64,000 bases of DNA from Candidatus Hadarchaeota archaeon (GTDB lineage: Archaea > Hadarchaeota > Hadarchaeia > Hadarchaeales > JAGGTB01), in the NCBI GenBank assembly GCA_964554215.1, contig CAZKND010000001.1, positions 9,158 through 73,157 on the forward strand, given 5' to 3'. The position numbers and the translations under genes are program-made. Under the pieces are notes generated by a model. That model was not told where the DNA came from. It searched no databases and saw nothing but the letters and a program-made list of their open reading frames with translations. Each line of letters starts with the position of its first letter. Positions within the stretch are counted from its first letter, which is position 1. Below, in pieces: positions 34,887 through 49,070 of this stretch.

Positions 34887-36422
34887 TCACATGAAGGCTT
34901 TTACGTCTTGTTTGTCCTGTGCTCTATCATCTTCGTAGTCTTTGGCTATTTCCTCCAGACCAACATCGTGATTTGCTTCTTTTGATTTTCTTTCTCTTAC
35001 ATTTACAAAAACTGGATGATTCACAGCCTCACCTACAACAAGAGCCTGTCCAACAGGGAGGGAAGATATAATGCTTGAAGTGTCCTTCGTAATCTTTTCG
35101 GAAGATTTCTTTATATGGTCCAAATCGTACGGATTCGTCACTCTGAGAATTATATTCGTGTTTGCCTGGGAGAGTACGGTGGTAGACAGCCTCTTAGGTC
35201 TTTGACTTATGAGGATTAATGAGGCGTAAAATTTCCTACCCTCTCGAGCCACCTTTTTCAAAATCCCTGATGAAATCGAAGAATTCTGCGAGGGAGCAAA
35301 CTGGTGAGCTTCCTCCACCAACATAGCGAAAGGAGGAGCTTTTCCCGATTTTCTCTTGTTGAACAATTTTCTAGCAAAATATGTGAGAATCACCCTCTTC
35401 TCTCTGAGACTGAATACCCTACTCAGATCTAAAATCGCTGCTTTTCCCGGTTTCACAAGTTCTTTCCATGTCGGATAGTCATTCTTTCCAAATATTCCAA
35501 GTTTTTTGAGATCGTACAACCTGTCAAGCAATGCTTTACGGAGCTGTTTATTGGACTTACCGTTGTCCTCCACTCGAGCTATAACATCATCAAGATCATA
35601 TCTTCCCTTACCATTCCTCATCTCGGATCTCAAGTTACTTATCACTCTACTGAGCTCTCTCGCTTGACTACTGCTCATGTCAGGAGCAAACTCCTTGAAC
35701 TGATAGGCCGACATGCTTGGAACTCCAATTTTCACATTTTCACCGCCTATCAAAGACACCTGATCGGAATAATCGACTCCTTCCGACCCATTAGACTCCG
35801 CTAAGGAAGTGTATTCTCCATGGACATCGACAATAACCGAAGCAATCCTACCATCATCTCTATCCCGTTCTAACAGTTCTTCGATGAGGACGGAGGCCGT
35901 GTAGCTCTTACCGGCACCGCTCATAGCAAGAATGGCGGCATGTTTGCGCAAAAGTTTAGTTAGGTCAAATTTGGCCCTAAGATCGTGATAACGAATCTCT
36001 CCTAAATCCACACCGCCATCCTTATCAATCCCTAAAAAATCGCAAAGCGAATCTTCATCGATTTTGAAAACCTTATCTCCCGGGGAAACTGGAAAACTTA
36101 CCTGTTTCAACCCATCATCGGATTTTATCCCTGAGGACTTCGCTTCTGCAACGATATATTCCCACCTGCCAGCCGGAAAAATCGAAGTCAGAGACTCCTC
36201 CCCTTTTTCGTATTCTTTCACCGACTCAGGTCGCATAAAATAACGGTTGGTCTTCTTAACGTTCTGAACCTGGGCAATCACCTTACCCTCTTTCGATTCC
36301 AACTCTACAAATTGACTCCTACGAACTGGAATCCCCCCATTCTTGTTTGTAACTACGAAAGAGAAATCTCCTGAAGATGGTCCGTCAGGAGTGCAAATTA
36401 CTGTGCCTAACTCTTCTGTCAT
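34887..36422 (-). CDS. herA: HerA DNA helicase/translocase (FtsK-HerA superfamily ATPase)
   Basis: N-terminal HAS-barrel. Walker A AILAMSGAGKS. Walker B MLVEEAHQFAP. The gene is translationally coupled to upstream nurA. Confidence 0.8.
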   Translation of the reverse strand: MTEELGTVICTPDGPSSGDFSFVVTNKNGGIPVRRSQFVELESKEGKVIAQVQNVKKTNRYFMRPESVKEYEKGEESLTSIFPAGRWEYIVAEAKSSGIKSDDGLKQVSFPVSPGDKVFKIDEDSLCDFLGIDKDGGVDLGEIRYHDLRAKFDLTKLLRKHAAILAMSGAGKSYTASVLIEELLERDRDDGRIASVIVDVHGEYTSLAESNGSEGVDYSDQVSLIGGENVKIGVPSMSAYQFKEFAPDMSSSQARELSRVISNLRSEMRNGKGRYDLDDVIARVEDNGKSNKQLRKALLDRLYDLKKLGIFGKNDYPTWKELVKPGKAAILDLSRVFSLREKRVILTYFARKLFNKRKSGKAPPFAMLVEEAHQFAPSQNSSISSGILKKVAREGRKFYASLILISQRPKRLSTTVLSQANTNIILRVTNPYDLDHIKKSSEKITKDTSSIISSLPVGQALVVGEAVNHPVFVNVRERKSKEANHDVGLEEIAKDYEDDRAQDKQDVKAFM

Positions 36423-37606
36423 TTGAACGGCCTCCTCTCTCTTCTGAGGTCCATCATAGTTGACGGTTCTAACTGGTCAGCGATATTGTCCCTCAGGATT
36501 GTGATTTCTTCCTGGGAGAGCGATGCTCTGGCATCGGCTTCTATAAGTACTGATGGGAGGGCACAAGCATCGTGAGAAGCCGATAGGGAATTGATAAGCG
36601 ATGCAGTTTTTTCAATTGTTTTCTTCGGGCGTTTAGGATTTGTCAAAAATTCCACTCTAGTAGGTCTATCATATTCAACTGGTTTCATATAGAAAGCTCG
36701 AACCCTCTTGCTCCAGGGACGAAGCTCTGATAATAGACTTGAGGGTGTTTTGGAATATTTGAATGTGAAGCTTCTCTCCCCCGCTCCAAGAAGGTAATCT
36801 AGAAATGCTGTATCTCTGGATTTCATAACTATGTTTTTATTATCGTTGAACCGTGCACGATTTTTCTCAGACATATCAGCGTTTTCCAAAATTTCAGGAA
36901 ATATCTTCTCTTCGAAAATACTTGTTAATCTTGTACTCCTGCTGTCCTCCACAGCCCCTATCAACAGAACATCATTTCTCGTAGCGGTTTTGTATATTTT
37001 GCTATAAGTTTCAATTACTTCTTCGTAAAGTTCTTCCGTCCTTTCCTCTGAGGACTTATGGATATATTGTGGAACTATCGACCCATCTAAAACCATTACA
37101 TCAAGATCAACCCCTTTCAAAACTTCGTAAGCTCTTTGAAGCTCTGTAAGCTGCCTTTTCAGTCCTGTCAACAAGTCCAGCTCCTTAGCGTCCAGAGGTT
37201 CGTGAACATTAACCAGTTGAGGAGCGGGTACTTCGCTAGGATGATAATCCACATTCTTTAAATCACCCTCCTTATATTGAAACATCGAAACAACTGCTCT
37301 GACGAGAATAAGATCTAAACCATGTAGTGGTTTCGTAAGAACACCGCCGTCTACTCCAGCGACCTTCAAATCTTCCAAGGATTTTTCTTCTACAGGATAG
37401 ACAAGTTTTGGTTCTACAGGGCAATCGTTTTCCCCGTGAGGGATTTCTACATCGGTCTTTACATCCCTAATCAAGTCTGATAGAACCTTTCTCTTCTCAC
37501 CTTGTGTCTTTATTTTATCGGCTATCGTACCAATTTTATTTTCCAAATTCTTATGATTCGATAAGTTAATGGAATCATCTACCGGTATCATCGGATCAGG
37601 CACCAT
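36419..37606 (-). CDS. nurA: NurA 5'-3' nuclease
   Basis: VAGVDGG and VMVLDGS motifs. Overlaps the herA start by 4 nt. Confidence 0.75.
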   Translation of the reverse strand: MVPDPMIPVDDSINLSNHKNLENKIGTIADKIKTQGEKRKVLSDLIRDVKTDVEIPHGENDCPVEPKLVYPVEEKSLEDLKVAGVDGGVLTKPLHGLDLILVRAVVSMFQYKEGDLKNVDYHPSEVPAPQLVNVHEPLDAKELDLLTGLKRQLTELQRAYEVLKGVDLDVMVLDGSIVPQYIHKSSEERTEELYEEVIETYSKIYKTATRNDVLLIGAVEDSRSTRLTSIFEEKIFPEILENADMSEKNRARFNDNKNIVMKSRDTAFLDYLLGAGERSFTFKYSKTPSSLLSELRPWSKRVRAFYMKPVEYDRPTRVEFLTNPKRPKKTIEKTASLINSLSASHDACALPSVLIEADARASLSQEEITILRDNIADQLEPSTMMDLRRERRPFK

Positions 37607-37719
37607 TTCGTAAAGAGGGCTCAGTCTTTTTAAGGAGGAAGTAGAGGGGTAGGTGAAAGTAAAACTGGTTAAGACGACTTCACAAAAAGCGTAAAATAGT
37701 TACAAAACAAATTGGAAAC

Positions 37720-38253
37720 GTGAACAAAATGTTTAGAGCATATAGATGTGAAATTTGTGGAGAAACCTATCTAGGTAAAGGAAAACCTGAAAACTGTCCA
37801 TATTGCGGAGCACAAGAAGAATACCTGAAGAAGATAGAAAATTACGAAAGACTGATGCCGGAAAAAATAACGGAAAAATCTCGAGAAAACATCAAAGAGG
37901 CAATAAAGCTCGAAATAGACAACGCTAAATTCTACAATTGCGCCTACGAAAAAACGGAGAACGAGGATGACGCTGCAATATTCAAAAGGTTGAGAAAGAT
38001 AGAAGCAGAACACGCAGAACTTTTAGCAGAGATAATAGACGTTCCAGAAAAAGAAATACCTGACTACGAAGAATGTTCAGAAGATGCAGAAGAAAACTAC
38101 AAGGATGCTCACGATAGAGAAGACCGAGCGATAAAGTCCTATTCGAAATTCGCCAAAGAAGCAGAAAATCCAAAGGTCAAAGAAGTATTCGAAGCTATTG
38201 TCGAAATAGAATCAGACCATCTGGATCTTTCAGAAGAAAAAATCTCGGATTGA
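37720..38253 (+). CDS. reverse rubrerythrin-like protein (N-terminal rubredoxin-type zinc ribbon plus ferritin-like diiron domain)
   Basis: CEICG ... CPYCG zinc ribbon at the N-terminus. Two E..H pairs (IEAEHAEL; EIESDHLD) and further glutamates in a four-helix-bundle-like C-terminal part. Confidence 0.6.
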   Translation: MNKMFRAYRCEICGETYLGKGKPENCPYCGAQEEYLKKIENYERLMPEKITEKSRENIKEAIKLEIDNAKFYNCAYEKTENEDDAAIFKRLRKIEAEHAELLAEIIDVPEKEIPDYEECSEDAEENYKDAHDREDRAIKSYSKFAKEAENPKVKEVFEAIVEIESDHLDLSEEKISD

Positions 38254-38338
38254 GTTCTGAATAGAGAGCACTTTTCAAAAGAGCCTTCGGACCAAACAGA
38301 ATATACACTCAACAGATAATATCTAAGAGGAGATTAAA

Positions 38339-38752
38339 TTGGATATGGAATATGAAGGAATAGGAATTAGAGCTCTATCTATAATCTTGGATTCCATAAT
38401 TCTATCAATATTCTTCTTTCCATTAGGATACACCCACACCGGGTACTTCCCATATGAAGTGTATGGAAGAGGCGCATTTCTAATATTCAATAGTACTGCT
38501 ATAATCTCTCTAGCTTACTTCATCATCCTAGAAGGTTTAATGGGTCAAACAATAGGTAAACTCATAACCGGAATAAAAGTAGTGAAAACAAACGGTGACC
38601 CTTGCGATTTCGAAGCATCCTTCGTCAGGAATATACTTAGGATTGTAGATATAATCTTTGCCTACATAGTTGGCGCAGTATTAATAGCTCGTTCTGACAA
38701 AAATCAGAGATTCGGAGATAGAGTAGCGGATACAGTGGTGATAAACGCTTAA
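38339..38752 (+). CDS. RDD family membrane protein
   Basis: GIRALSIILDSII ... GQTIGKLITGIKVV ... RFGDRVADTVV with three TM segments. Confidence 0.75.
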   Translation: MDMEYEGIGIRALSIILDSIILSIFFFPLGYTHTGYFPYEVYGRGAFLIFNSTAIISLAYFIILEGLMGQTIGKLITGIKVVKTNGDPCDFEASFVRNILRIVDIIFAYIVGAVLIARSDKNQRFGDRVADTVVINA

Positions 38753-38818
38753 ATTTACTCATTCCATTTATAAAAAAATATAAAAGCGTCTGTTAGTAAA
38801 ATAAAGTGGACGAATTCT

Positions 38819-39577
38819 ATGTTTGATGACGATAAATTCAGAAATCTGAGAATATTTAATCTTTCGATGGGATTTTTCCATCTGATTCAGTCCATGTTAA
38901 TGATATTTCTTAGCACAGACTTCGCGATATCAGTGACGAGTACCTACATGCAGGGACCACCAGGTACTGTAGAAGTAGCAAGAGAGGTTCTATTCGATAT
39001 AAAATTAGGACCTGCAATCGCATTGTTCCTATTGCTCTCAGCGGTGGCCCATTTCTATCTCTCATCTGTAGGTTTTGATTGGTACAAAGAAAATCTAAAA
39101 AATCATATAAATAAGGCTCGATGGATAGAGTATTTCTTCAGCAGTTCTCTCATGATCGTTATCATAGCTATGCTGGTTGGAATCACCGATTTAGCAGCTT
39201 TGGTAGCCTTGTTTGTTGTAAACGGATCCATGATCTTGTTCGGTTGGCTAATGGAATCATATAATCAAAACACTGAAGATGTTGCTTGGTCACCTTTCGT
39301 ATTCGGATGCATCGCCGGGATTGCTCCCTGGATTGCAATAGCCATCCGGCTAGCAACAGCTTTCTCCTTCACTTCCGTTCCTATTCCAAGTTTCGTTATC
39401 TGGATATTTGTATCGATAGCTATCTTTTTCAATATCTTTGCAGTTAACCAAGCCTTACAATACAAAGAAGTAGGGCCGTGGGAGAACTATCTTTTCGGAG
39501 AAAAGGTCTACATAGCCCTCAGCCTCATCGCGAAATCATTGCTAGCTTGGCAGGTCTTTGCAGGCACACTGGTCTAA
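38819..39577 (+). CDS. heliorhodopsin (7-TM retinal protein, inverted topology)
   Basis: FNLSMGFFHLIQ ... TYMQGPPGT ... WIEYFFSSS ... NGSMILFGWLMESYNQ ... FGCIAGIAPWIAIAI ... QALQYKEVGPWENYLFGEKVYIALSLIAKSLLAWQVFAGTL align block-for-block with heliorhodopsin 48C12 as I recall it. The Schiff-base lysine is in SLIAKS (codon 39533-39535) and the counterion Glu is in WIEYF. Confidence 0.85.
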   Translation: MFDDDKFRNLRIFNLSMGFFHLIQSMLMIFLSTDFAISVTSTYMQGPPGTVEVAREVLFDIKLGPAIALFLLLSAVAHFYLSSVGFDWYKENLKNHINKARWIEYFFSSSLMIVIIAMLVGITDLAALVALFVVNGSMILFGWLMESYNQNTEDVAWSPFVFGCIAGIAPWIAIAIRLATAFSFTSVPIPSFVIWIFVSIAIFFNIFAVNQALQYKEVGPWENYLFGEKVYIALSLIAKSLLAWQVFAGTLV

Positions 39578-39608
39578 ATCATATCTGAAAACGGACGCCG
39601 ATCAAATC

Positions 39609-40331
39609 TTAACTTTCATCTTTTCTAACTTCATCTTTGCAGTCTTCATCATCTAAAAACTCGTCTACTTCAAACTCTACGTCTTCCTTTTCCCTTATTT
39701 TGCCTTTAGCCTCTCTTTCAGGGGCCTTTGCAAAGAAGTATATAGTGGAACCGAGAATCAATCCCATTACAAAAGTGAATACCCCTACACCACCCCATAC
39801 TCCCAAACTGCCTCCTACATTGCTAAAGAATTCAGTTACAGTAGTAGCTCTACTAGGATGGATAAGTATTTTCCCTATCCATGCTAGCGTGAAAATGAAG
39901 ATTATCCATATATACATCCTCTTCAGTCTTCTCTTTACTGCTTCTGGCCAAGTTACTTTAAACTCTGGTTCTCGAAAGTCTCGTGAAATTAAATCTTGCC
40001 ATCCCTCATCCACCTCTACATTCGAATCAAAAAATCTTGACAGGAACATTTCCTCTAAGGCTCTAACTCTTCCTCGCCAAGCATCGTAATATCTATATCT
40101 TCTAGCCTCAGCGAAAAGTAGAACATATGTCAAAAACAAACCTGGTAACATCGTCCAATGCGGAGCGGTCTTGGTACCAAGAGCAAAGGTCAAAACACCT
40201 ACTGTCATGACGATAGCCCAATTCGTAGTCCTATCCATACGGGTTCTCCAAGTATTAATACGTTGAAGCTCTCCACGGTAAACGTGCATAATGACGTTCG
40301 TGTCTCCACGACTTATCTCATCCCAATCCAT
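39609..40331 (-). CDS. conserved membrane protein (possibly DUF2270-like)
   Basis: Four predicted TM helices, a YRGELQRINTWRTRMDRTTNW N-terminal motif and an acidic C-terminal tail. The family assignment is tentative. Confidence 0.45.
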   Translation of the reverse strand: MDWDEISRGDTNVIMHVYRGELQRINTWRTRMDRTTNWAIVMTVGVLTFALGTKTAPHWTMLPGLFLTYVLLFAEARRYRYYDAWRGRVRALEEMFLSRFFDSNVEVDEGWQDLISRDFREPEFKVTWPEAVKRRLKRMYIWIIFIFTLAWIGKILIHPSRATTVTEFFSNVGGSLGVWGGVGVFTFVMGLILGSTIYFFAKAPEREAKGKIREKEDVEFEVDEFLDDEDCKDEVRKDES

Positions 40332-40455
40332 AATCTCCCCTAAGTCCTTTTTAAACTATACTTATACGCTCTCAAAAAAGTAATGGAACAATTAAACCCT
40401 CTCAAATATCGATTAAATAACAAAAACGAAGAAAAATCCCATTCTCCAATAAAAA

Positions 40456-40863
40456 CTAATAAGTGGTATACTCTTCTTTGATTTCTCTTCTTTCAATCGA
40501 CTTATTCTCTTTTTTTAGTTTCTTTATAACTTCTTCAGGGTGCTCCATTCCAATTTCCGCTAGAATCTTCTTCAACTCACTAATCTTAATATTTTCCAGT
40601 TCAGGGTGGTTCTCGGAGATTCCTACAATTTCGTTGAAGAAATCCTTAGCTTCAGCTTCCATCTCTTTCGAAGAGACCTCAGAAGTATCCAACGGTTCCT
40701 CCGACGTATCCTCTTCCCTCTTCAAAAACCTCTCTCCAAGTCTACTCACATCCTCCCCCTCTTCTTTCTTCTTTTCAAAACGCTCGCCTAACCTTTGGGC
40801 AAGTACTTCGGACTCCTCACTCTCACTTTTCTCATTTTCTTCACTCATCATTATCCCCCTCAC
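40456..40863 (-). CDS. acidic coiled-coil protein encoded directly downstream of parA (candidate ParA partner/adaptor)
   Basis: 135 aa. Overlaps the parA 3' end by 23 nt on the same strand. Duplicated RLGERF motif and no obvious HTH. Confidence 0.4.
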   Translation of the reverse strand: MRGIMMSEENEKSESEESEVLAQRLGERFEKKKEEGEDVSRLGERFLKREEDTSEEPLDTSEVSSKEMEAEAKDFFNEIVGISENHPELENIKISELKKILAEIGMEHPEEVIKKLKKENKSIERREIKEEYTTY

Positions 40864-41635
40864 ATTTTGATATAACTAAATCAGCAAGGCTCATGAAATT
40901 TTCCACCTGATCACAAGAAGGATCATGATTATAAAGAGTAGTCCTCTTCTTCATAGCTCTCCTAATCGCAACCCTTTGACGAAGCTCGAAAGGCGTCAAA
41001 TATTCTTTCAAACCATCCATCTCTCGCAACTTATCCAGCGTAGAGGAAGCCACATTGTCCGGCCTCACCAGATTAGGTACGATTGCAAGTATCTCCACAT
41101 TTATCCCAAAAGCGTTCTCTATCTCCTCAATCTCATCGAGAGCTCTGTGAACGGACACAACACTCATGTCTTCATCTTTTATCGGAACAACCACTCTCCC
41201 CGCAGCAAGTATGGCATTATCGTAAAGTATACCTACGGTCGGAGGCGAGTCTACCACTACATAATCGTAAGGGTCTTCAACCTCTTCCAAAAACATTTTT
41301 AATCTCATTTCTCGATTCCTCTCAGAACTTAGCCTCTCCTCCACCCCTCTCATATCATAATTAGAAGGAACCAAATCAACTCCTTCCTCTGTAGTAATGA
41401 TTGTATCTTCTGGATCGCCTTTAGTTCCTTTAATCAAGTGATATGCTAAACTGTCCTTATTTTCATCATAATACTCCCGATCAAAACCTAAATGGGCCGA
41501 AAGGTAAGCGGAAGGATCAAGATCCACTATCAATACGTCCTTGTCTTTCTTAGCCAAAGCCACTGCAAGATGCAGCGCTATAGTGGTCTTTCCAACACCA
41601 CCCTTCTGATTTGAAACGGTTACACGATAAGTCAT
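40841..41635 (-). CDS. ParA/MinD/Soj-family P-loop ATPase
   Basis: Deviant Walker A KGGVGKTT. 264 aa. Confidence 0.85.
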   Translation of the reverse strand: MTYRVTVSNQKGGVGKTTIALHLAVALAKKDKDVLIVDLDPSAYLSAHLGFDREYYDENKDSLAYHLIKGTKGDPEDTIITTEEGVDLVPSNYDMRGVEERLSSERNREMRLKMFLEEVEDPYDYVVVDSPPTVGILYDNAILAAGRVVVPIKDEDMSVVSVHRALDEIEEIENAFGINVEILAIVPNLVRPDNVASSTLDKLREMDGLKEYLTPFELRQRVAIRRAMKKRTTLYNHDPSCDQVENFMSLADLVISKCEGDNDE

Positions 41636-41792
41636 CTTAGCTCCATAATAAAAATGAGTTCTAACGTTAAATTATTTGACCCAAATTCCACCGGAAGAAC
41701 CTCAAATAATCTGTTATGAATTTATTACCAATTCAATGCTTAACAATCTTCAACCAAAAATATACTCAAAAATCAAAATAGTTCTACTTCAG

Positions 41793-42842
41793 TCAAATCT
41801 CTACTAACTCGTAATCCCTCTCACCCATACCCAGTTTCTCAGCATATCTCACCTGGATCTCCGGATCGGTATCACCATCAAACTTATCGGTGTCGGACAA
41901 GTCCAATCCAGCCTGATCTATCGACACTATATCATCAGACAAAAGTATACCGACATCTTCCATCACAGGCTCCTGTTTCTCGTTCATACAATCACAATCA
42001 GGCGTCACATCCATCAAAACTGTCATGAAGTAGGATCTTCTATCCTTGAGGGCAGCGTAAGCGTATTCCACGATTCTCTCATCCAACTTCTGAGCAGACC
42101 CATCTTCCCAAGGAATCTCAACCGCGTCTTCTGGACAAACAGCTATGCACATACCGCACCCAATACATTTATCCTGATCAATGCTCGCAGCCCCTCCGTT
42201 AATGCTAATCGCATCGACTGGACATTCCTGTACACACTTTCCACAAGCTATACAGTCGGAAGAAGCTATCTCTAAGTTGAAGACCTGATGCATCGCCATT
42301 TTTCCCTCCCTAGTTCCCAATCCCATACCTATATTCTTCAACGCTCCACCGAAACCCGCAGGGTTGTGACCCGTGAGATGGGAGAGAGCAAACAGAACGT
42401 TATAATTTCCCAAAGCCTCACCGAGTTTCGCCTTGTCAAAGTGATTCAAATCGACCGGAACGACCATCTCTTCTCCACTTTTCTCCCCATCCGCAATCTC
42501 AATAGGAGCGAAATCAAACCCATTATCTTTAGCAAGTTTTCTATGGGAAGATCCAAGAGACCTCTCACTGTTATATAGAACATTACAATCCATAAGAACC
42601 GTTTTTTTAACCTCATCATTCACTTCACCATAAATCGACTCCACCAAGTCTGGACTCAAATGAGTTTCACTCTTCCTTTCCCCAAAGTGAAGTTTTATGG
42701 CTACCTCGTCTTCAGGGTCCAAATAATCTAAAAAAACATCCGATAATTTCTTCAAGTCTTCTTTAAAATCAAAAGATTCCTTATCCGTCCTTAAAAGATA
42801 AACCTTGCTCATCTTTCCACCATTACAATAAAAATAACTCAT
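41793..42842 (-). CDS. DUF362 domain protein with a C-terminal 2x[4Fe-4S] ferredoxin domain
   Basis: CIACGKCVQECP and CIGCGMCIAVCP cluster motifs. The DUF362-like N-terminal part contains VAIKLHFGE. The probable start is the internal ATG (MSKVYLL, 42812). Confidence 0.7.
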   Translation of the reverse strand: MSYFYCNGGKMSKVYLLRTDKESFDFKEDLKKLSDVFLDYLDPEDEVAIKLHFGERKSETHLSPDLVESIYGEVNDEVKKTVLMDCNVLYNSERSLGSSHRKLAKDNGFDFAPIEIADGEKSGEEMVVPVDLNHFDKAKLGEALGNYNVLFALSHLTGHNPAGFGGALKNIGMGLGTREGKMAMHQVFNLEIASSDCIACGKCVQECPVDAISINGGAASIDQDKCIGCGMCIAVCPEDAVEIPWEDGSAQKLDERIVEYAYAALKDRRSYFMTVLMDVTPDCDCMNEKQEPVMEDVGILLSDDIVSIDQAGLDLSDTDKFDGDTDPEIQVRYAEKLGMGERDYELVEI

Positions 42843-42967
42843 AACTTATGATTATTTTTGAGCCATTACCTACTCAAATCTATAGATTATTCAAAAGCAT
42901 TAATGGAATACATAATACAAAGTTATCCGTAGACATTATGCACATCTCAACGAAGTCAAATCGAAAA

Positions 42968-43396
42968 CTATTCGTCCTTTTTCATCTCTTCTTCTACTTC
43001 TTCAAGACCATCTGAAATTTCTGTATCAAGCTCAATCTCTTCATCTTCCGCAGCCTCACCTGTCATAGAATCTATCATCTCTTCAACCTTCTCACCACTG
43101 AACTCCTCGTTCGTCAAAATTCCTTCACTGGTTATATCAACTGCCGTAGACAATGCTTCGTCCATAGATTCAGCTTTAAGCATGGCCTTTTCCATCTCCT
43201 TCTGGGTTGAAGCTATATCTTCAATCTCCGCACCCTCACCGATGGATTCCGCAACATCTTGAGCGAATTCTACAAAATTTCCGGAAAGTTTTACTAATTC
43301 TCTCTGTATCTGAGCTTCTTCCATTACCATCAAAAGCTTCTTACCTCTCTGAATTCTTTCCTGAAGAGTGAGATACTTTTTCGCCTGTCTTTTCAA
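42968..43396 (-). CDS. Snf7/ESCRT-III-like coiled-coil protein, apparently lacking an N-terminal start (possible pseudogene or 5'-truncated gene)
   Basis: The only start codon is the TTG at 43396. The reading frame stays open a further 43 codons upstream (KQRTIRYRKAKSKINKYISNLKELQNKVFEQGKEAASLNDKKF) with ESCRT-III-like composition (GKEAA...L.KRQAKKY) up to a TAG at 43526-43528. The C-terminal half is acidic, as in ESCRT-III. Confidence 0.35.
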   Translation of the reverse strand: MKRQAKKYLTLQERIQRGKKLLMVMEEAQIQRELVKLSGNFVEFAQDVAESIGEGAEIEDIASTQKEMEKAMLKAESMDEALSTAVDITSEGILTNEEFSGEKVEEMIDSMTGEAAEDEEIELDTEISDGLEEVEEEMKKDE

Positions 43397-43695
43397 AAAT
43401 TTCTTATCATTCAGACTCGCGGCCTCTTTACCCTGTTCAAAAACCTTATTTTGAAGTTCTTTAAGATTAGAGATATACTTGTTAATCTTGCTTTTCGCTT
43501 TCCTATAACGGATTGTTCTCTGCTTCTATCGAGACCTGATTCCGTAAAATCTAAAATGCTTGTCCTACCCTACTTTTGAATGTGCAGGAAATACACCTCC
43601 TCTCGATCCACCCTCCGGAAGAGGTGTACTCCTTTTCAACCACATCACTTGCAATACAAACTCAGCAAAAAAAGGATTTCAGAAGAGCCAAAAAA

Positions 43696-43710
43696 ATTTA
43701 AATAATTTGT
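43696..43710 (+). promoter_or_regulatory. BRE/TATA-like promoter element TTTAAATAATTTGT preceded by an A-run
   Basis: Lies 57 nt upstream of the GTG of the 170-aa gene. The identical 14-mer occurs at 51721-51734, upstream of the 508-aa gene. Confidence 0.5.
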
Positions 43711-43766
43711 CATCCGAACAAGAGAACTAAGAAATAACCTCTAAAATAACAAAGGAGGTGAGATTT

Positions 43767-44270
43767 GTGGCAGCAGGATTTAATTCAATGAGAGCAATGG
43801 CGGAACTCATGAGTCAAATGGACAAAGATGAAACCGTTACGTTGATTGAGTCTTCCAGAGATATTCTTGACGCTCTTGCAGAAAACCCTGAAGTATTGAA
43901 AACATTCAGTTCTATCCTGAAAGAATTAGCAGAAGATGAAGAAATCGCTAAAGGTTTATCCAATTTAGTTTCCTTAGCCGGACCATCTATCGATGCTCTG
44001 AACAACACAATGACTCCCGAAGCAGTAGACATGATGCACGAACTAGCACAGAACGATGATGTGAAGGAAGGCATAGGTTCTTTCCTATCAATTATAGACC
44101 CCGAAATGTTAGGGGCTCTACTACCAGTGATCGGATCAATTATAGGAGCAGTCCTATCTGAAATATCCAAAAATGAAGAAGCAAAAGAACACTTGATTGG
44201 TTTAATCTCTCATAGTGGTCCATTGGCTAAGAAAGCCAACACCGCTTTTATGGGTGAATCAGTCGACTAA
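43767..44270 (+). CDS. all-alpha helical-repeat protein (DUF1641-like?), copy A
   Basis: GTG start 7 nt after the AAGGAGGTG RBS. Differs from copy B (53366-53869) at 27 of about 167 aligned residues (roughly 84% identity), by my manual count. Confidence 0.6.
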   Translation: MAAGFNSMRAMAELMSQMDKDETVTLIESSRDILDALAENPEVLKTFSSILKELAEDEEIAKGLSNLVSLAGPSIDALNNTMTPEAVDMMHELAQNDDVKEGIGSFLSIIDPEMLGALLPVIGSIIGAVLSEISKNEEAKEHLIGLISHSGPLAKKANTAFMGESVD

Positions 44271-44302
44271 TGATTTCTAAAGACTTTTTAGAGGAATAAA
44301 AA

Positions 44303-44398
44303 ATGCCAGTGAAAAAGAAAGCTCTGGTCACAGGTGCGTGTGACTTTGTAGGTCCGCACATTATAGATTTTTTAGTAGCGCAGTATTCACGTAGGTAA
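44303..44398 (+). pseudogene. 5' remnant (31 codons) of an NAD-dependent epimerase/dehydratase gene
   Basis: MPVKKKALVTGACDFVGPHIIDFLV matches the N-terminus of the intact paralog at 53902 (MSGKKKALVTGACGFVGSHIIDLLV). Homology then breaks at about 44379 and a stop follows. Confidence 0.6.
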
Positions 44399-44420
44399 AA
44401 ATCCCTTTGTCTTTTTTGGT

Positions 44421-44457
44421 AAAATCTTCCCCGAGTTTTGAGGGATGGGGAGATTTT
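44421..44457. repeat. inverted repeat AAAATCTTCCCC / GGGGAGATTTT with a 14-nt spacer, just inside the insertion boundary
   Basis: Read directly from the sequence. The ATG of ORF 44445 lies in the spacer, immediately before the right arm (44447-44457). Confidence 0.5.
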
Positions 44458-44831
44458 GCCTATATCTTTTTAGATTCCCATTCGTGCCCGTGTTAGTTAG
44501 AGATTCGGTGTACGGAAAATTTTTGGAGGAGGATATTTACCTCTACCAGAAATTATTGAAAGTTTTCAGACTAGGACTGGAATCGACAAAGGTCGAGACT
44601 TCCCACTCCCAAATACTTGAAGCACTTTCAAAAAACATTTCAACCGTTCTTGAACCCGTGAGCTCTCGGACGCTCACCCCACATCACGAATTAATCGAAG
44701 CATACTCTATAAAGCTCACAAACGAAGTAAAAACATTCTACGAAACCGAAATCAAATCGCACGGAAATTCAGCCCGTACAAGCATGCAAAAAGCATTAGT
44801 CATCGTGCTCGAAGAAGGCGAAAAAGAATGA
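44445..44831 (+). CDS. hypothetical protein (128 aa) inside the higher-GC insertion
   Basis: ORF only. No recognisable motif. Confidence 0.35.
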   Translation: MGRFCLYLFRFPFVPVLVRDSVYGKFLEEDIYLYQKLLKVFRLGLESTKVETSHSQILEALSKNISTVLEPVSSRTLTPHHELIEAYSIKLTNEVKTFYETEIKSHGNSARTSMQKALVIVLEEGEKE

Positions 44832-44936
44832 GTTAATTTTGTAACAATGCCGAATCAAGGGAAGAATTTATTAAGATTTGTTAAATCATAAATATTTGTT
44901 GGAGCATAAAGAGACGAAAAATAAGAGTGGTTCAAG

Positions 44937-45098
44937 ATGAAATGTTGGATATGTCGAGAAGAGAAGGAAGACCTTAAGGAGATAGAAGCCATGGGGTCGG
45001 AGCATCACGTGTGTTCTGACTGCCTCTGGAGGGTATTAGACGAGCACGGTAAGCCAAAGTACGAGACAAAGCCTAAGTGGGAGAATATCTATGAGTAA
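44937..45098 (+). CDS. small zinc-ribbon protein (53 aa; CWIC ... CSDC); not in the supplied ORF track
   Basis: My own translation: MKCWICREEKEDLKEIEAMGSEHHVCSDCLWRVLDEHGKPKYETKPKWENIYE. Overlaps the start of the downstream epimerase gene by 8 nt. Confidence 0.35.
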   Translation: MKCWICREEKEDLKEIEAMGSEHHVCSDCLWRVLDEHGKPKYETKPKWENIYE

Positions 45099-46284
45099 TT
45101 CTGATAAAGTCCTAGTCATGGGAGCGTGTGGTAACGTCGGCTCGAAGTTAGTGAGGATTCTGCTGGATAACGGATACGATGTAAGGGCTAGCGACCTGGA
45201 GGATGCGAGTAAGGAGCTTTTAGGGGACCTTGATGTGGAGTTCGTTCCCGGGGACATCACGAAACCAGAAACTTTACAAGACGTTGTCGAGGACGTGGAC
45301 GCGGTTTTTAACACGGTATCATTCCTGGCCTACTCGAACCTTATCTCTTACGACCAGATGTACAAGGTCAATGTAGAGGGGGAAAGGAACTTACTTGAGG
45401 CCACCATGGAAAACAATGACGATCTTAAGGCCTTCATACACTGGGCTTCGGGAGAAACTTACGGTCTGGGCGGTTTGTTTGAAGAGCGGTTCCTCCATGA
45501 AAATGGAGAAAGTAGAGAGGATCATCCTCAAACTGCATCTGATGCTCCCTATCCGAAGACGAAATTGCTAGGTGAGCGAGAGTGTTGGCAGTACTACGAG
45601 GAGGAGGATTTACCATTGATAGTAATGCGACCATCCATGATTTATGGACCGGAGCCATCATTCGAGGACAGAAGGTGGCTCAGATACTCCAAGTATTTCA
45701 TGGTAATGCGGGATTTAGTAGAGATGATGGGAGGATGGCCAGGGCTTCTGAACTTTAAAAACCCGCTTGTCCACGCGGAGGATTCAGCCAGAGCGGCAGC
45801 ATTCCTTTACGAGAACAAAGAGGATGCCATAGGTGAGGCATTCAATATCGTGGACGACCAAAATTACACCATGGAAGACATCGTTCGTTTCATGTTTGAC
45901 TATTTCGGCTGGGATATTCAAGAAAATCCTTCTGCACATCTCAAGCCCCTGTTGAAGGGACTTCCACTGCCAAAACCCACCATCAGGGTGTTCAAGAAGG
46001 CGTACAGGGCCTGGATGGACGAAGTAAGGGAACAGGGACCAATCTGGTGGGACTCGAACTACCAGGATCACTATCTTGAAGAGATGCTGAGCATGGAGAA
46101 TTACTGTGAGGACTTCAAATATTCCAACAGAAAGATAAAGGATCTCGGCTTTGAATTCAAGTATCCGGACGTGAGGGACGCCTTACCAGACATATTCGAG
46201 AACTGGAAGGAAAAAGACCTGGTGCCAGAGAGCTCCGGATTCAAGCACTTCTTTCTCAAGGCATTCCTGCTGGATGAACGCTAA
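45091..46284 (+). CDS. NAD-dependent epimerase/dehydratase (extended SDR) family protein, divergent homolog of 53902-55089
   Basis: Rossmann motif VMGACGNVGSKL and catalytic YxxxK (APYPKTK). Noticeably higher GC than its surroundings. Roughly 35-40% identity to the other copy by eye. Confidence 0.8.
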   Translation: MSNSDKVLVMGACGNVGSKLVRILLDNGYDVRASDLEDASKELLGDLDVEFVPGDITKPETLQDVVEDVDAVFNTVSFLAYSNLISYDQMYKVNVEGERNLLEATMENNDDLKAFIHWASGETYGLGGLFEERFLHENGESREDHPQTASDAPYPKTKLLGERECWQYYEEEDLPLIVMRPSMIYGPEPSFEDRRWLRYSKYFMVMRDLVEMMGGWPGLLNFKNPLVHAEDSARAAAFLYENKEDAIGEAFNIVDDQNYTMEDIVRFMFDYFGWDIQENPSAHLKPLLKGLPLPKPTIRVFKKAYRAWMDEVREQGPIWWDSNYQDHYLEEMLSMENYCEDFKYSNRKIKDLGFEFKYPDVRDALPDIFENWKEKDLVPESSGFKHFFLKAFLLDER

Positions 46285-46430
46285 ACAGGGTATTAATTTA
46301 CCCCGGAAATAGGAGAGCAGGAAGCAGTAACTCAGTCTGTACCGTTGGAAGTACCTGGGCAACCCGAGTTATTCTATTAATCAATGGGGTCAAAATAACA
46401 ACTTCATAAAAAGTAAAAATCTTATATTTT

Positions 46431-46448
46431 TTGTTATATATACAACAA
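46431..46448. repeat. near-perfect 18-bp palindrome TTGTTATATATACAACAA, 8 nt upstream of the ATG at 46457
   Basis: Read directly. Partner palindrome at 46736-46753. Confidence 0.7.
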
Positions 46449-46456
46449 TATAGACC

Positions 46457-46732
46457 ATGGTAAAAATACTCATACTCTGGGACATCAAATCGAAAGGATC
46501 CAAAGCCACATGCTTCTATCGAGACTTGAAAGGTTATGATTACAAAACAAAATCAGGGAAAAAACATAGCGATGGAATATTAGATGAACTTCCCCAAGAC
46601 GTCTGGGACTTTGTCAGCCGTAGTGCACTATTGATAGAGAAGAAGCACGCAAACGAGATAGAACAAGTCTTCAAAAAGTATGATTCTCATCTAAAGTGGA
46701 AAAAGTTCAAGGTTGAAGAAAATGAAAAATGA
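46457..46732 (+). CDS. hypothetical small basic protein (91 aa) bracketed by palindromes
   Basis: ORF MVKILILWDIKSKGSKATCFYRDLKGY.... Weak resemblance to the Cas2/VapD-like beta-alpha fold start, too weak to claim. Confidence 0.45.
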   Translation: MVKILILWDIKSKGSKATCFYRDLKGYDYKTKSGKKHSDGILDELPQDVWDFVSRSALLIEKKHANEIEQVFKKYDSHLKWKKFKVEENEK

Positions 46733-46735
46733 GAG

Positions 46736-46753
46736 TTGTTGTATATACAACAA
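46736..46753. repeat. perfect 18-bp palindrome TTGTTGTATATACAACAA, 3 nt after the stop of the 91-aa gene
   Basis: Read directly. Its reverse complement is identical. Confidence 0.7.
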
Positions 46754-46799
46754 AAGGTTTAATAGAGTATATAAACAATTCAAGATTGAGGAATAGAAC

Positions 46800-49070
46800 A
46801 TGTCAGAAGGGAAAAAAGAATTAGAACTTACAGTAGCAGAAGCACGTAGGCAAAAAGATGTAGGCAAAAATGTCGCGAGGATAAGCAAAAAAGCGATGAA
46901 AGAACTCGGAGTCAAACAAGGCGACATCATAGAGATCGAAGGTAACAAAAAATCCGGCGCCATAGTAAGGACAAGTTATAGAGAAGACGAAGGATTGGAC
47001 ATCATAAGACTAGACGGTCTCGAACGGAAAAACACTGGTACTTCAATTGGAGAAAAAGTGAAAGTACGGGAAGCAGAAGTGAAAGAAGCCGACAAGATCA
47101 CTATAGCCCCTGCAGATCAAAACATACAGATACAAGGAGGAGGTAGAGCACTAAAACAGAGCCTCCTAGGACGACCGGCAACCAAAGGCGACCTCATTAC
47201 ACCAACAGGACAACCAGGAGATATATTCTCCCAAATATTTGGAGGAATGTTCCAAGGTACATCTCCATCTTCATCTTTTGGACTGGGAGAACTTAGATTC
47301 ATGGTGACAAACGTAAATCCGGACGACCTAGTGCTGATCACAAAAAATACGACAGTAAACCTATCTTCAAAAACAGCAGATATAGAAGAAGCATCCACCC
47401 CGTCTATAACCTATGAAGATATCGGTGGACTAGACAAAGAAATCCAGAGAGTTCGAGAGATGGTCGAACTACCATTAAGACATCCAGAACTCTTTGACCA
47501 ACTAGGGATAGAACCACCGAAAGGAGTACTCCTACACGGACCTCCAGGAACTGGAAAAACGCTAACCGCAAAAGCAGTGGCAAACGAATCTGACGCCCAC
47601 TTCCAATCAATAGCAGGGCCAGAGATAATGTCAAAATTCTACGGAGAATCAGAAAAGAAGCTAAGAAACATTTTTGAAGAAGCAGAGAAAAACGCACCTT
47701 CCATAATATTCATCGACGAAATAGACGCCATAGCTTCAAAAAGAGAAGAGGTAAGCGGAGATGTGGAAAAAAGAGTTGTATCACAACTCCTATCCTTGCT
47801 GGATGGATTAGAATCTCGAGGAAAAGTCATAGTAATAGCAGCTACCAACCGAGTGGACGCCGTCGACCCCGCACTAAGAAGACCAGGTCGTTTCGACAGG
47901 GAGATAGAAATCGGAGTTCCAGACCGAGAGGGACGTAAAGAGATCATGCAAATACACACTCGAGGAATGCCCCTTTCAGAAGACGTCGACTTAGATAGGT
48001 TGGCCGACAATACTCACGGTTACGTCGGTGCAGACCTAGCTTCCTTGTCAAGAGAATCGGCGATGAACGCTTTGAGAGAGATATTGCCTGAGATCGACTT
48101 AGAAGATAAGAGAATTCCATCCGAAACTCTCGAAGGATTAGAGGTATCCGGAGAAAACTTCAGAAAAGCAAGACAACAAATAGAACCTTCCGCAATGAGA
48201 GAAGTGCTGGTCCAAGTTCCCGACACTCCATGGGAAGATGTAGGAGGGTTAGAAGAATCCAAACAACAACTTAGAGAAGCAGTTGAATGGCCGCTGAAGA
48301 AAGACGAAGCGTTCGAAAGAGTCGGTATAGAAGCCCCACACGGTATACTCCTATACGGACCACCAGGAACCGGTAAGACAATGCTCGCAAAAGCCGTAGC
48401 CACCGAAAGCGATTCTAATTTCATCTCTGTAAAAGGACCCGAACTCCTATCTAAATGGGTCGGAGAATCCGAAAAAGCGGTAAGAGAAACATTTAAAAAA
48501 GCAAGACAAGCTGCACCAACCGTAATATTTTTCGACGAAATCGACGCAATGGTGCCAAAAAGAGGCCGGAGACAAAGTAGTTCACAAGTAGGAGAAAGAG
48601 TGATCAGTCAACTATTAACAGAGATGGACGGTCTAGAGGAACTAGAAAACGTAGTAGTTATCGGTGCAACAAACAGGCCTGATCTCGTAGATCCAGCTCT
48701 ATTGAGACCAGGAAGATTCGACAGAGTCATGATGGTTCCAGGACCAGACAAAGAAGCGAGAGAAGAAATCTTCAAGATACACACCAGAGAGATGCCAATA
48801 GCAGAAGATGTCGACCTAGAAGAACTTGCTGAAGAAACTGCTGGATACAGCGGAGCAGATATCGCAGCTGTTTGCAAAGAAGCAGGGATGCTCGCTCTAA
48901 GAGAAGATATAGAAACAGAAACCGTCTCCAAAGAAGAATTCGAAGAAGCTTTGAAATCGGTCGGTCCATCGATTACAGATGAGATAACTGATACCTACAA
49001 AGAGTTCAAAAGTAAACACGGGAAAGAAATCGCTGAAGAAGCTAAAAAGGAAATGAAAGCCTACTACTAA
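46800..49070 (+). CDS. cdc48: CDC48/VCP-like AAA+ ATPase (N-domain plus two AAA modules)
   Basis: Two Walker A motifs (GPPGTGKT twice), two Walker B DEID/DEIDA motifs and second-region-of-homology arginines. 756 aa. Confidence 0.9.

What the first reader, a model, noticed from the sequence alone, without database searches (positions are those of the whole stretch)
46431..46753. A 91-aa gene cassette bracketed by two 18-bp palindromes
TTGTTATATATACAACAA sits 8 nt before the start codon and the perfect palindrome TTGTTGTATATACAACAA sits 3 nt after the stop. Each is self-complementary, so together they act as both direct and inverted repeats 305 bp apart. The enclosed protein is small, basic and unrecognised. 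Three readings are possible: operator sites for a dimeric regulator (autoregulation, or control of downstream cdc48); the termini of a tiny mobile or MITE-like cassette; or the right edge of the higher-GC insertion.
Basis: seen in the sequence. Interest (0 to 1): 0.5.

Follow-up and report, generated by a model that had tools for sequence, protein, structure and literature searches.

The report
Operator palindromes controlling an archaeal cdc48 module
The two 18-bp palindromes are conserved protein-binding sites on the promoters of a small uncharacterised gene and the adjacent cdc48 chaperone-ATPase gene in Hadarchaeia/MSBL1 archaea, and the small Cas2-like-fold protein is probably the regulator that binds them, which would make it a transcription-factor family not described before.

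Summary
They are not transposon or MITE ends, and they are not an insertion edge.

In 9 distinct related loci (57-84% protein identity), the 91-aa gene always sits directly upstream of cdc48. A TTGTTRTATATAYAACAA site always lies between a TATA-like box and the start codon. A second copy follows the stop codon whenever cdc48 has its own promoter, and it abuts a conserved BRE/TATA element. Where the two genes form an operon, this copy is absent.

The protein has no Pfam, NCBIfam or PDB sequence match. AlphaFold gives a confident ferredoxin-like fold whose nearest solved relatives are Cas2 proteins, at weak significance.

Distant homologs (about 30% identity) keep the same layout but with different inverted repeats. 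These include a paralog in the same MSBL1 genome. A DPANN-like long-form clade is again fused to cdc48.

My best reading (confidence about 0.6) is an autoregulatory repressor of a novel fold that controls itself and cdc48. This is analogous to the wHTH regulators Phr and HSR1 but not homologous to them. The main rival is that the protein is a Cdc48 cofactor and another factor binds the sites. DNA binding has not been tested.

The parts
46422..46429 (+). Predicted TATA box (TTATATTT) of the small-gene promoter. The predicted transcription start is near 46452, so the mRNA would be essentially leaderless.
   Evidence: An AT-rich TATA-like element lies 0-6 nt upstream of the palindrome in all 9 distinct loci. 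No Shine-Dalgarno sequence precedes the ATG. The TSS position is inferred from the archaeal rule that the TATA box is centred near -26; it was not measured.
46431..46448 (.). Operator O1: TTGTTATATATACAACAA, an imperfect palindrome lying between the TATA box and the start codon (about -21 to -4 relative to the predicted TSS).
   Evidence: It is conserved in all 9 distinct loci, ending 8-10 nt before the ATG in 8 of them, while the flanks are unalignable.
46457..46732 (+). Gene for a 91-aa basic protein with a ferredoxin-like, Cas2-like fold. It is the candidate operator-binding autoregulator.
   Evidence: ORF. (28 homologs, 60-100% identity, all MSBL1/Hadarchaeia hypotheticals). (AF2 pLDDT 88). 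(fold searches). (pI 9.26).
46736..46753 (.). Operator O2: TTGTTGTATATACAACAA, a perfect palindrome that abuts or overlaps the BRE of the cdc48 promoter.
   Evidence: It is present 1-7 nt after the stop in all 6 loci that have a 65-80 nt spacer, and absent where the spacer is 4-19 nt.
46754..46765 (+). Predicted BRE/TATA (AAGG TTTAATAG) of the cdc48 promoter.
   Evidence: The conserved block AAnnTTTAAAAG sits at fixed spacing after O2 in 6 loci. cdc48 has an AGGTG/GAGG Shine-Dalgarno sequence upstream of its start.
46800..49070 (+). cdc48 (CDC48_N, CDC48_2 and two AAA domains), the regulated target gene.
   Evidence: Pfam. It is the conserved immediate downstream neighbour in all Hadarchaeal loci and in the DPANN-like clade.

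Best explanation
The two palindromes are operators of a compact, autoregulated cdc48 control module.

O1 lies between the TATA box and the transcription start of the small gene. A dimer bound there would block RNA polymerase recruitment and so repress the small gene itself. O2 abuts the BRE/TATA of the separate cdc48 promoter, so the same factor would also set cdc48 transcription. Repression by occluding TFB/BRE is the most likely effect, but activation from a site upstream of the BRE cannot be excluded.

The factor is most probably the 91-aa protein itself. It is a basic protein with a ferredoxin-like, Cas2-like fold, and it is inferred to act as a homodimer on the symmetric 18-bp site.

Shown here: the sites, their conservation and geometry, the gene linkage, the fold, and the change of operator sequence with protein clade.

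Inferred: DNA binding by this protein, the sign of regulation, the TSS positions, and the inducing signal (presumably proteotoxic or heat stress, by analogy with Phr/HSR1).
For: 1. Rarity. There are only two sites in 64 kb against 0.16 expected, with nothing at 1-4 mismatches. No further sites at 4 or fewer mismatches occur in 65 kb of related loci outside this gene pair.

2. Footprint. In 9 distinct loci with 57-84% protein identity, the 18-mer is near-invariant while the flanking intergenic DNA is unalignable.

3. Geometry. O1 follows a TATA-like box and ends 8-10 nt before an ATG that lacks a Shine-Dalgarno sequence in 8 of the 9 loci (1 nt in L011). O2 is followed at fixed spacing by a conserved AAnnTTTAAAAG. 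When cdc48 is 4-19 nt downstream (an operon), O2 is absent; in L007 and L009 a second site then flanks the TATA box on the upstream side, 33-34 bp centre to centre. In L011 the cdc48 promoter has the order site, TATA, site.

4. A DNA site rather than an RNA hairpin. Positions 6 and 13 occur as A/C, A/T, G/C and G/T without Watson-Crick covariation. The RNA hairpin energies are only -4.7 and -0.5 kcal/mol. Rfam gives no hit.

5. Operator and protein change together. Homologs at about 30% identity have different inverted repeats in the same places. L135 has TTTTCACACGTGTGAAAA, then TATA, then TTATCACACGTGTGATAA, then ATG, and a third copy right after the stop, and it is not next to cdc48. L138, a paralog in the same MSBL1 assembly as L008, has TACTGTAATATATTTCAGTA between TATA and ATG. 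The DPANN-like long-form clade has TTTAGG-N11-CCTAAA-[TATA]-TTTAGGG. The only element common to all these loci is the small gene.

6. The protein. The core is basic in most members, with pI 9.3-10.2. The AF2 model is confident. The best Foldseek matches are Cas2 proteins, several of them chains of Cas1-Cas2 complexes solved with bound DNA (and again). That Cas2 is a homodimer contacting duplex DNA rests on my own knowledge.

7. Precedent. Phr and HSR1 are autoregulated repressors, Phr's site overlaps the transcription start, and cdc48 is among their targets (PMC9133787, PMC5852551).

Against: No oligomer or DNA complex could be modelled. Some family members are acidic overall (P0026 pI 5.4, P0029 pI 4.3).

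Tight linkage to cdc48 in two phyla, with overlapping reading frames in the DPANN-like clade, is also what a Cdc48 cofactor would show.

The regulon could not be surveyed genome-wide. The metagenome scan returned almost only chance hits. No TSS, expression or binding data exist.
Confidence: 0.6

Rival explanations
1. The palindromes are operators, but they are bound by a different transcription factor encoded elsewhere, for example a Phr/HSR1-type heat-shock regulator. The 91-aa protein would then be a Cdc48 cofactor, adaptor or substrate-like stress protein that is merely co-regulated and co-transcribed with cdc48.
For: The protein has no recognisable DNA-binding domain. The gene pair is conserved in Hadarchaeia and in a DPANN-like clade, with overlapping ORFs that suggest translational coupling. 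Long forms carry an acidic disordered linker and a conserved terminal helix, which could be a protein-interaction motif. Some members are acidic.
Against: Family members not linked to cdc48 (L135, L138) still carry their own, different palindromes at the same promoter position. Two paralogs in one genome have two different palindromes, which would require two additional unknown regulators. The operator is found only at this locus in about 130 kb sampled, which fits a local autoregulator better than a global stress regulator. The site resembles neither the Phr motif nor the HSR1 motif (PMC9133787).
Confidence: 0.27
2. The palindromes act at the RNA level as hairpins: a 3' hairpin acting as terminator or stabiliser after the small ORF, and a 5' hairpin affecting translation. 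A Cas2/VapD-like RNA-binding or RNase protein might recognise them.
For: Cas2, VapD and GhoS-like folds include RNases, and GhoS appears among the weak matches. O2 lies directly after the stop codon.
Against: The hairpins are weak (-4.7 and -0.5 kcal/mol). Positions 6 and 13 show no compensatory pairing. No U-tract follows O2; a conserved BRE/TATA follows instead. O1 lies largely upstream of the predicted TSS. Rfam gives no match. The Asp at the end of beta-1 is not conserved across the wider family.
Confidence: 0.06
3. The palindromes are the terminal inverted repeats of a small mobile or MITE-like cassette, or they mark the edge of a horizontally acquired insertion.
For: Two near-identical 18-mers bracket a small ORF. 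A variable segment of about 8.8 kb with a higher-GC epimerase gene and a DUF2080 'transposon-encoded' ORF lies just upstream.
Against: There are no extra copies and no target-site duplication. The cassette is fixed next to cdc48 in every relative and its divergence parallels that of cdc48. Operonic variants have sites on one side only. O2 is welded to a conserved promoter. Upstream neighbours differ, while the palindrome and promoter stay the same.
Confidence: 0.02

Closest known systems
Phr (Pyrococcus furiosus) and HSR1 (Archaeoglobus fulgidus) heat-shock regulators, arCOG01684
   Same: Both are small autoregulated regulators. Phr's operator overlaps the transcription start and blocks RNA polymerase recruitment. 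cdc48 (an AAA+ ATPase) is a target, and in M. thermophilum the arCOG01684 gene AMET1_0853 carries the locus number next to the CDC48 gene AMET1_0852 (PMC9133787, PMC5852551). That HSR1 lies in one operon with cdc48 rests on my own knowledge.
   Different: Phr and HSR1 are winged-helix proteins, whereas this protein has a ferredoxin-like, Cas2-like fold without an HTH. The operator sequence is unrelated: TTGTTRTATATAYAACAA here, against CTAAC-N5-GTTAG for HSR1 and TTTA..TGGTAA..AAAA for Phr. This looks like an analogue, possibly a non-orthologous displacement, and not a family member.
Cas2 (CRISPR adaptation protein) and the related VapD/GhoS ferredoxin-fold proteins
   Same: The beta-alpha-beta-beta-alpha-beta core is about 90 aa. 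Cas2 proteins give the best Foldseek PDB matches (probability 0.9-1.0, TM about 0.55). Several of those matches are Cas2 chains from Cas1-Cas2 complexes solved with bound DNA. That Cas2 is a homodimer lying on duplex DNA rests on my own knowledge.
   Different: There is no significant sequence match to Pfam Cas2. No cas1 gene or other cas domain was called in any locus examined. Extra beta-hairpins are present. The putative catalytic Asp is not family-wide. The proposed role is sequence-specific regulation, which is not known for Cas2.
Archaeal regulators whose effect depends on operator position relative to BRE/TATA (SurR, TrmBL1, Tgr; from my own knowledge)
   Same: A palindromic site downstream of TATA represses and a site upstream of BRE can activate. 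Here O1 lies downstream of TATA and O2 lies upstream of or overlapping the BRE.
   Different: Those regulators are wHTH proteins with broad regulons. Here the sites appear confined to one gene pair in the DNA sampled.

Membership tests
Phr/HSR1 heat-shock regulators (arCOG01684) | Winged helix-turn-helix DNA-binding domain homologous to Phr/HSR1 | tested here: not met
   There is no Pfam or NCBIfam hit. The AF2 model is an alpha+beta ferredoxin-like sandwich with no HTH.
Phr/HSR1 heat-shock regulators (arCOG01684) | Autoregulatory operator at its own promoter overlapping or adjacent to the TSS; cdc48 among the targets | tested here: inconclusive
   The positions of O1 and O2 and the cdc48 linkage fit. 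The TSS and binding are inferred, not measured.
Phr/HSR1 heat-shock regulators (arCOG01684) | Derepression on heat shock | not testable with these tools
   No expression data exist for these uncultured archaea.
Cas2 (PF09827) | Significant sequence match to the Cas2 profile | tested here: not met
   The window protein gives no hit at E up to 1. One distant homolog scores E=0.13, below the cut-off.
Cas2 (PF09827) | Ferredoxin-like beta-alpha-beta-beta-alpha-beta fold | tested here: met
Cas2 (PF09827) | Genomic association with cas1 and a CRISPR array | tested here: not met
   No cas domains appear in the gene tables of any locus. CRISPR arrays were not specifically searched for.
MITE / small mobile cassette | Multiple dispersed copies, target-site duplication, presence/absence polymorphism | tested here: not met
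   (no other copies, no TSD). (fixed position, divergence tracking cdc48).
Archaeal operator site (transcription-factor binding site) | Dyad symmetry, conservation above the flanks, and fixed position relative to BRE/TATA and the TSS across orthologous promoters | tested here: met
Archaeal operator site (transcription-factor binding site) | Demonstrated binding by a cognate protein | not testable with these tools
   This needs EMSA or footprinting. Dimer-DNA modelling was not available.

The most novel reading that the evidence does not exclude
The 91-aa protein founds an undescribed family of sequence-specific archaeal transcription factors built on a Cas2-like ferredoxin fold, with no HTH, RHH or zinc module. 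Each clade would have co-evolved its own 18-20 bp palindromic operator. The family would have taken over the role of dedicated cdc48 regulator (the Phr/HSR1 niche) in Hadarchaeia and in Aenigmatarchaeota-like DPANN archaea. An optional extension is that operators bracketing the regulator gene allow a repression loop of about 300 bp, or that Cdc48 itself feeds back on the regulator.
Probability: 0.45. Interest if true: 0.75.

Novelty: new variant of a known kind. Interest (0 to 1): 0.6.

Why it matters
Very few archaeal transcription factors outside the HTH, RHH and Lrp families are known, and the regulation of protein quality control in uncultured archaea is essentially unknown.

If the small protein binds these sites, it would define a new DNA-binding fold family related to Cas2. 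It would give a ready-made operator/regulator pair, with several orthogonal specificities, for study or for synthetic biology. It would also show non-orthologous replacement of the ancient Phr/HSR1-cdc48 circuit.

If the protein is instead a Cdc48 partner, it would be a new candidate archaeal Cdc48 cofactor. Either outcome can be tested directly with one recombinant protein and two oligonucleotides.

Tried and rejected
1. The sequence searches of the 91-aa protein against Pfam, NCBIfam and PDB found nothing. A family profile against PDB gave only noise with E above 0.4.

2. The exhaustive profile search of 1.8 billion representatives gave only 13 hits. A wider profile gave 60 proteins, none annotated.

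3. The metagenome-wide scan for the palindrome was meant to find regulon members. Only one (L112) was a true small-gene/cdc48 locus, and the rest are chance matches in unrelated contigs. The regulon is therefore still unknown.

4. The afdb50 fold library was unavailable.

5. The cluster look-up for organism names returned none. The taxonomy of the long-form clade was instead inferred from a neighbouring NreA gene.

6. The RNA readings are disfavoured, with weak folding and no covariation.

7. The MITE and insertion-edge readings are rejected.

8. Centre-to-centre spacing between O1 and O2 is 297-305 bp and follows gene length. A fixed helical phasing for looping is therefore not supported, though looping is not excluded.

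9. The sigma-70 promoter/terminator scanner was not used because it does not apply to archaeal promoters.

Full report
**Observation**

Reading the window confirms both sites. TTGTTATATATACAACAA lies at 46431-46448, 8 nt before the ATG at 46457. TTGTTGTATATACAACAA lies at 46736-46753, 3 nt after the TGA at 46730-46732. The starts are 305 bp apart. The second site is a perfect palindrome and the first has one asymmetric position (A6/C13).

With up to 3 mismatches these are the only sites in 64 kb. The chance expectation is 0.16, and none of 100 shuffles reached the observed count. My own mismatch spectrum shows two sites at 0 mismatches, none at 1-4 and seven at 5.

The enclosed ORF encodes 91 aa with pI 9.26. 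It has no Pfam, NCBIfam or PDB sequence match. The downstream gene, 46800-49070, is a canonical Cdc48 with CDC48_N, CDC48_2 and two AAA domains.

**Organism and family**

The protein has 28 close homologs at 60-100% identity. All are hypothetical proteins, and every one that carries a source name comes from 'candidate division MSBL1' or Hadarchaeia archaea. The alignment is highly conserved, with 31 invariant columns.

**Context in relatives**

I collected 13 Hadarchaeal loci besides the window. They represent 9 distinct sequences including the window.

- The small gene is always immediately upstream of cdc48.
- The upstream neighbours differ. They are an epimerase here, and elsewhere a divergent hypothetical plus NurA/HerA, UbiA, a methyltransferase, or ilvD.
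- The divergence of the small protein tracks that of Cdc48 (84/88, 77/82, 68/72, 65/65 and 57/64 % identity). This indicates vertical co-inheritance.

**Footprint and geometry**

*Site O1.* Every locus has the 18-mer, or a variant with 1-3 mismatches. In 8 of the 9 distinct loci it ends 8-10 nt before an ATG that lacks a Shine-Dalgarno sequence; in L011 the annotated ATG follows after 1 nt. The site is directly preceded by an AT-rich TATA-like box. The surrounding intergenic DNA is otherwise unalignable.

With the archaeal TATA box centred near -26 (established knowledge), the start site falls just past the palindrome. The mRNA is therefore essentially leaderless, and O1 occupies roughly -21 to -4. 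Characterised archaeal repressors bind at this position to block RNA polymerase recruitment.

*Site O2.* All six loci with a 65-80 nt spacer before cdc48 have a second copy 1-7 nt after the stop codon. It is followed at fixed spacing by a conserved AAnnTTTAAAAG block, a BRE/TATA-like element, and further downstream by an AGGTG Shine-Dalgarno sequence and the cdc48 start.

*Operonic variants.* Where the spacer is only 4-19 nt (L007/8, L009/10, L112), the downstream copy is absent. In L007 and L009 a second copy instead sits upstream of the small gene's TATA box, 33-34 bp centre to centre, so the two copies sandwich the TATA box. L112 has the single site only. In L011 the cdc48 promoter itself has the order site, TATA, site.

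*Consistent asymmetry.* O1 almost always reads TTGTTA (imperfect) and O2 reads TTGTTG in five of the six loci that have it. This hints at different affinities.

**DNA site or RNA hairpin**

- Positions 6 and 13 occur in all four R/Y combinations (A/C, A/T, G/C, G/T) without compensatory change.
- The RNA hairpins would be weak, at -4.7 and -0.5 kcal/mol.
- O2 is followed by a promoter and not by a U-tract.
- Rfam finds nothing.

These points favour recognition of double-stranded DNA.

**Mobile-element and insertion-edge readings**

- No other copies with 4 or fewer mismatches exist in the window or in 65 kb of relatives.
- There is no target-site duplication.
- The gene is never missing from its position in the loci recovered.

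The window does contain a segment of about 8.8 kb (37.7-46.3 kb) between NurA/HerA (34890-37606) and the small gene. In relatives NurA is only about 850 bp away, so this segment is absent there. The segment includes the epimerase, whose GC is somewhat higher at 0.45-0.49. The operator and promoter are the same whatever lies upstream, so the palindrome is not an insertion boundary.

**The protein**

AlphaFold2 on the 27-sequence alignment gives a confident model with pLDDT 88 and pTM 0.71. The elements are beta(2-10), alpha(15-25), a hairpin (27-38), a short helix, a hairpin (50-61), alpha(62-74) and beta(79-87). This is a ferredoxin-like sandwich.

- Foldseek puts Cas2 proteins on top (7f84, 8d3l_E, 4qr0, 5h1o, 2ivy, 3exc). 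Probabilities are 0.9-1.0 and TM is about 0.55, but E-values are 0.025-0.2.
- An independent model of the long-form clade has pLDDT 68 overall and 72-89 in the core, with the same element order. It again retrieves Cas2 chains among its few low-rmsd hits.

There is no HTH, RHH or zinc ribbon. The most conserved stretch is helix alpha-1 and the following hairpin (A17 T18 F20 Y21 R22 L24 G26 Y27 Y29 T31 K32 G34 H37).

**Wider family**

A profile search of 1.8 billion representatives finds only 13 proteins. A broader profile finds 60, none with a Pfam domain or an informative name. Their loci are informative.

| Member | Relation to window protein | Inverted repeat at its promoter | Next to cdc48? 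|
|---|---|---|---|
| P0042 (L135) | 33% identity, archaeon with GC 54% | TTTTCACACGTGTGAAAA, then TATA, then TTATCACACGTGTGATAA, then 2 nt, then ATG; TTATCACACGTGTGAAAA directly after the stop | No |
| P0040 (L138) | Paralog in the same MSBL1 assembly (GCA_001549225.1) that holds P0023/L008 | TACTGTAATATATTTCAGTA between a TATA box and the ATG | No |
| Long forms P0056, P0047, P0070, P0051 (123-187 aa) | 26-31% identity | TTTAGG-N11-CCTAAA-[TATA]-TTTAGGG | Yes: overlapping or abutting in three, one 55-codon ORF between in P0070 |

The long forms consist of the core, an acidic disordered linker and a conserved basic terminal helix. Named relatives of their flanking NreA gene are all Aenigmatarchaeota, so this clade is probably DPANN.

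Four clades therefore carry four different dyad-symmetric motifs in the same promoter position. The only element shared among all these loci is the small gene itself. This is the main argument that the protein binds its own operators.

**Comparison with what is known**

Phr (P. furiosus) and HSR1 (A. fulgidus) belong to arCOG01684. They are autoregulated repressors and cdc48 and hsp20 are among their targets. Phr's site overlaps the start site, and the HSR1 motif is CTAAC-N5-GTTAG (PMC9133787, PMC5852551).

The circuit logic here is the same. The protein fold and the operator sequence are unrelated, so this is an analogue and not a member. Literature searches found no description of a Cas2-like-fold transcription factor or of this gene pair.

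**Verdict**

I am confident, at about 0.85-0.9, that the palindromes are promoter operators of a small-gene/cdc48 module. I rate at about 0.6 the further claim that the 91-aa protein is the cognate regulator, which would make it a new DNA-binding family.

The chief rival, at about 0.27, is that the protein is a Cdc48 cofactor co-regulated by another factor. The sign of regulation at O2, the signal, the oligomeric state and the regulon are inferred or unknown.

Noticed in passing
window 37700-46300: A segment of about 8.8 kb lies between NurA/HerA (34890-37606, minus strand) and the small gene. It is absent from relatives, where NurA is about 850 bp away. It carries rubrerythrin, an RDD protein, a heliorhodopsin (38819-39577, Pfam E=9e-100), DUF2270, a ParA/MinD-like ATPase, a DUF362 Fe-S protein, a DUF2080 'transposon-encoded' ORF (44445-44831) and a higher-GC epimerase (45091-46284). 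It is possibly a laterally acquired island. A heliorhodopsin in a Hadarchaeon or MSBL1 archaeon may be notable in itself.
   Followed up: partly
window 44937-45098: A 53-aa ORF has a CxxC...HxxCxxC pattern and gives weak RING/zf-C3HC4 hits (E about 0.004, below the cut-offs), just upstream of the epimerase.
   Followed up: no
L135:3940-4300: A distant homolog (P0042) has three copies of a GC-rich perfect palindrome with core TCACACGTGTGA. Two copies flank its TATA box and one lies 1 nt after its stop, inside what looks like an operon with an SFM1-like methyltransferase gene. Bracketing of the regulator gene therefore recurs in an unrelated clade, which could point to a roadblock or a loop.
   Followed up: partly
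L138:1300-1330 (same assembly as L008, GCA_001549225.1): A second family member (P0040) in one MSBL1 genome has its own distinct palindrome, TACTGTAATATATTTCAGTA. It sits next to a DDE transposase and two AhbA/B-like (NirD/L-HTH plus AsnC_trans_reg2) genes.
   Followed up: partly
L139, L140, L142 (proteins P0056, P0047, P0070): Long-form members have an acidic low-complexity linker followed by a conserved basic terminal helix with consensus EEEAIVKRFKTWQKAKKK. Two of these genes (L139, L140) overlap the cdc48 start by about 25-30 nt; in L142 a 55-codon ORF lies in between. The helix could be a Cdc48-interaction motif or an auxiliary DNA-binding element.
   Followed up: partly
window 46431-46448 against 46736-46753, and the same sites in L001, L004, L012 and L014: The upstream operator consistently has A at position 6 and the downstream operator has G in five of six loci. 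The difference is conserved across loci and may encode differential affinity.
   Followed up: partly
window 46766-46776: A second TATA-like element (TATATAAA) lies between the conserved cdc48 TATA box and the start codon. It is specific to this window and is not conserved in relatives.
   Followed up: no
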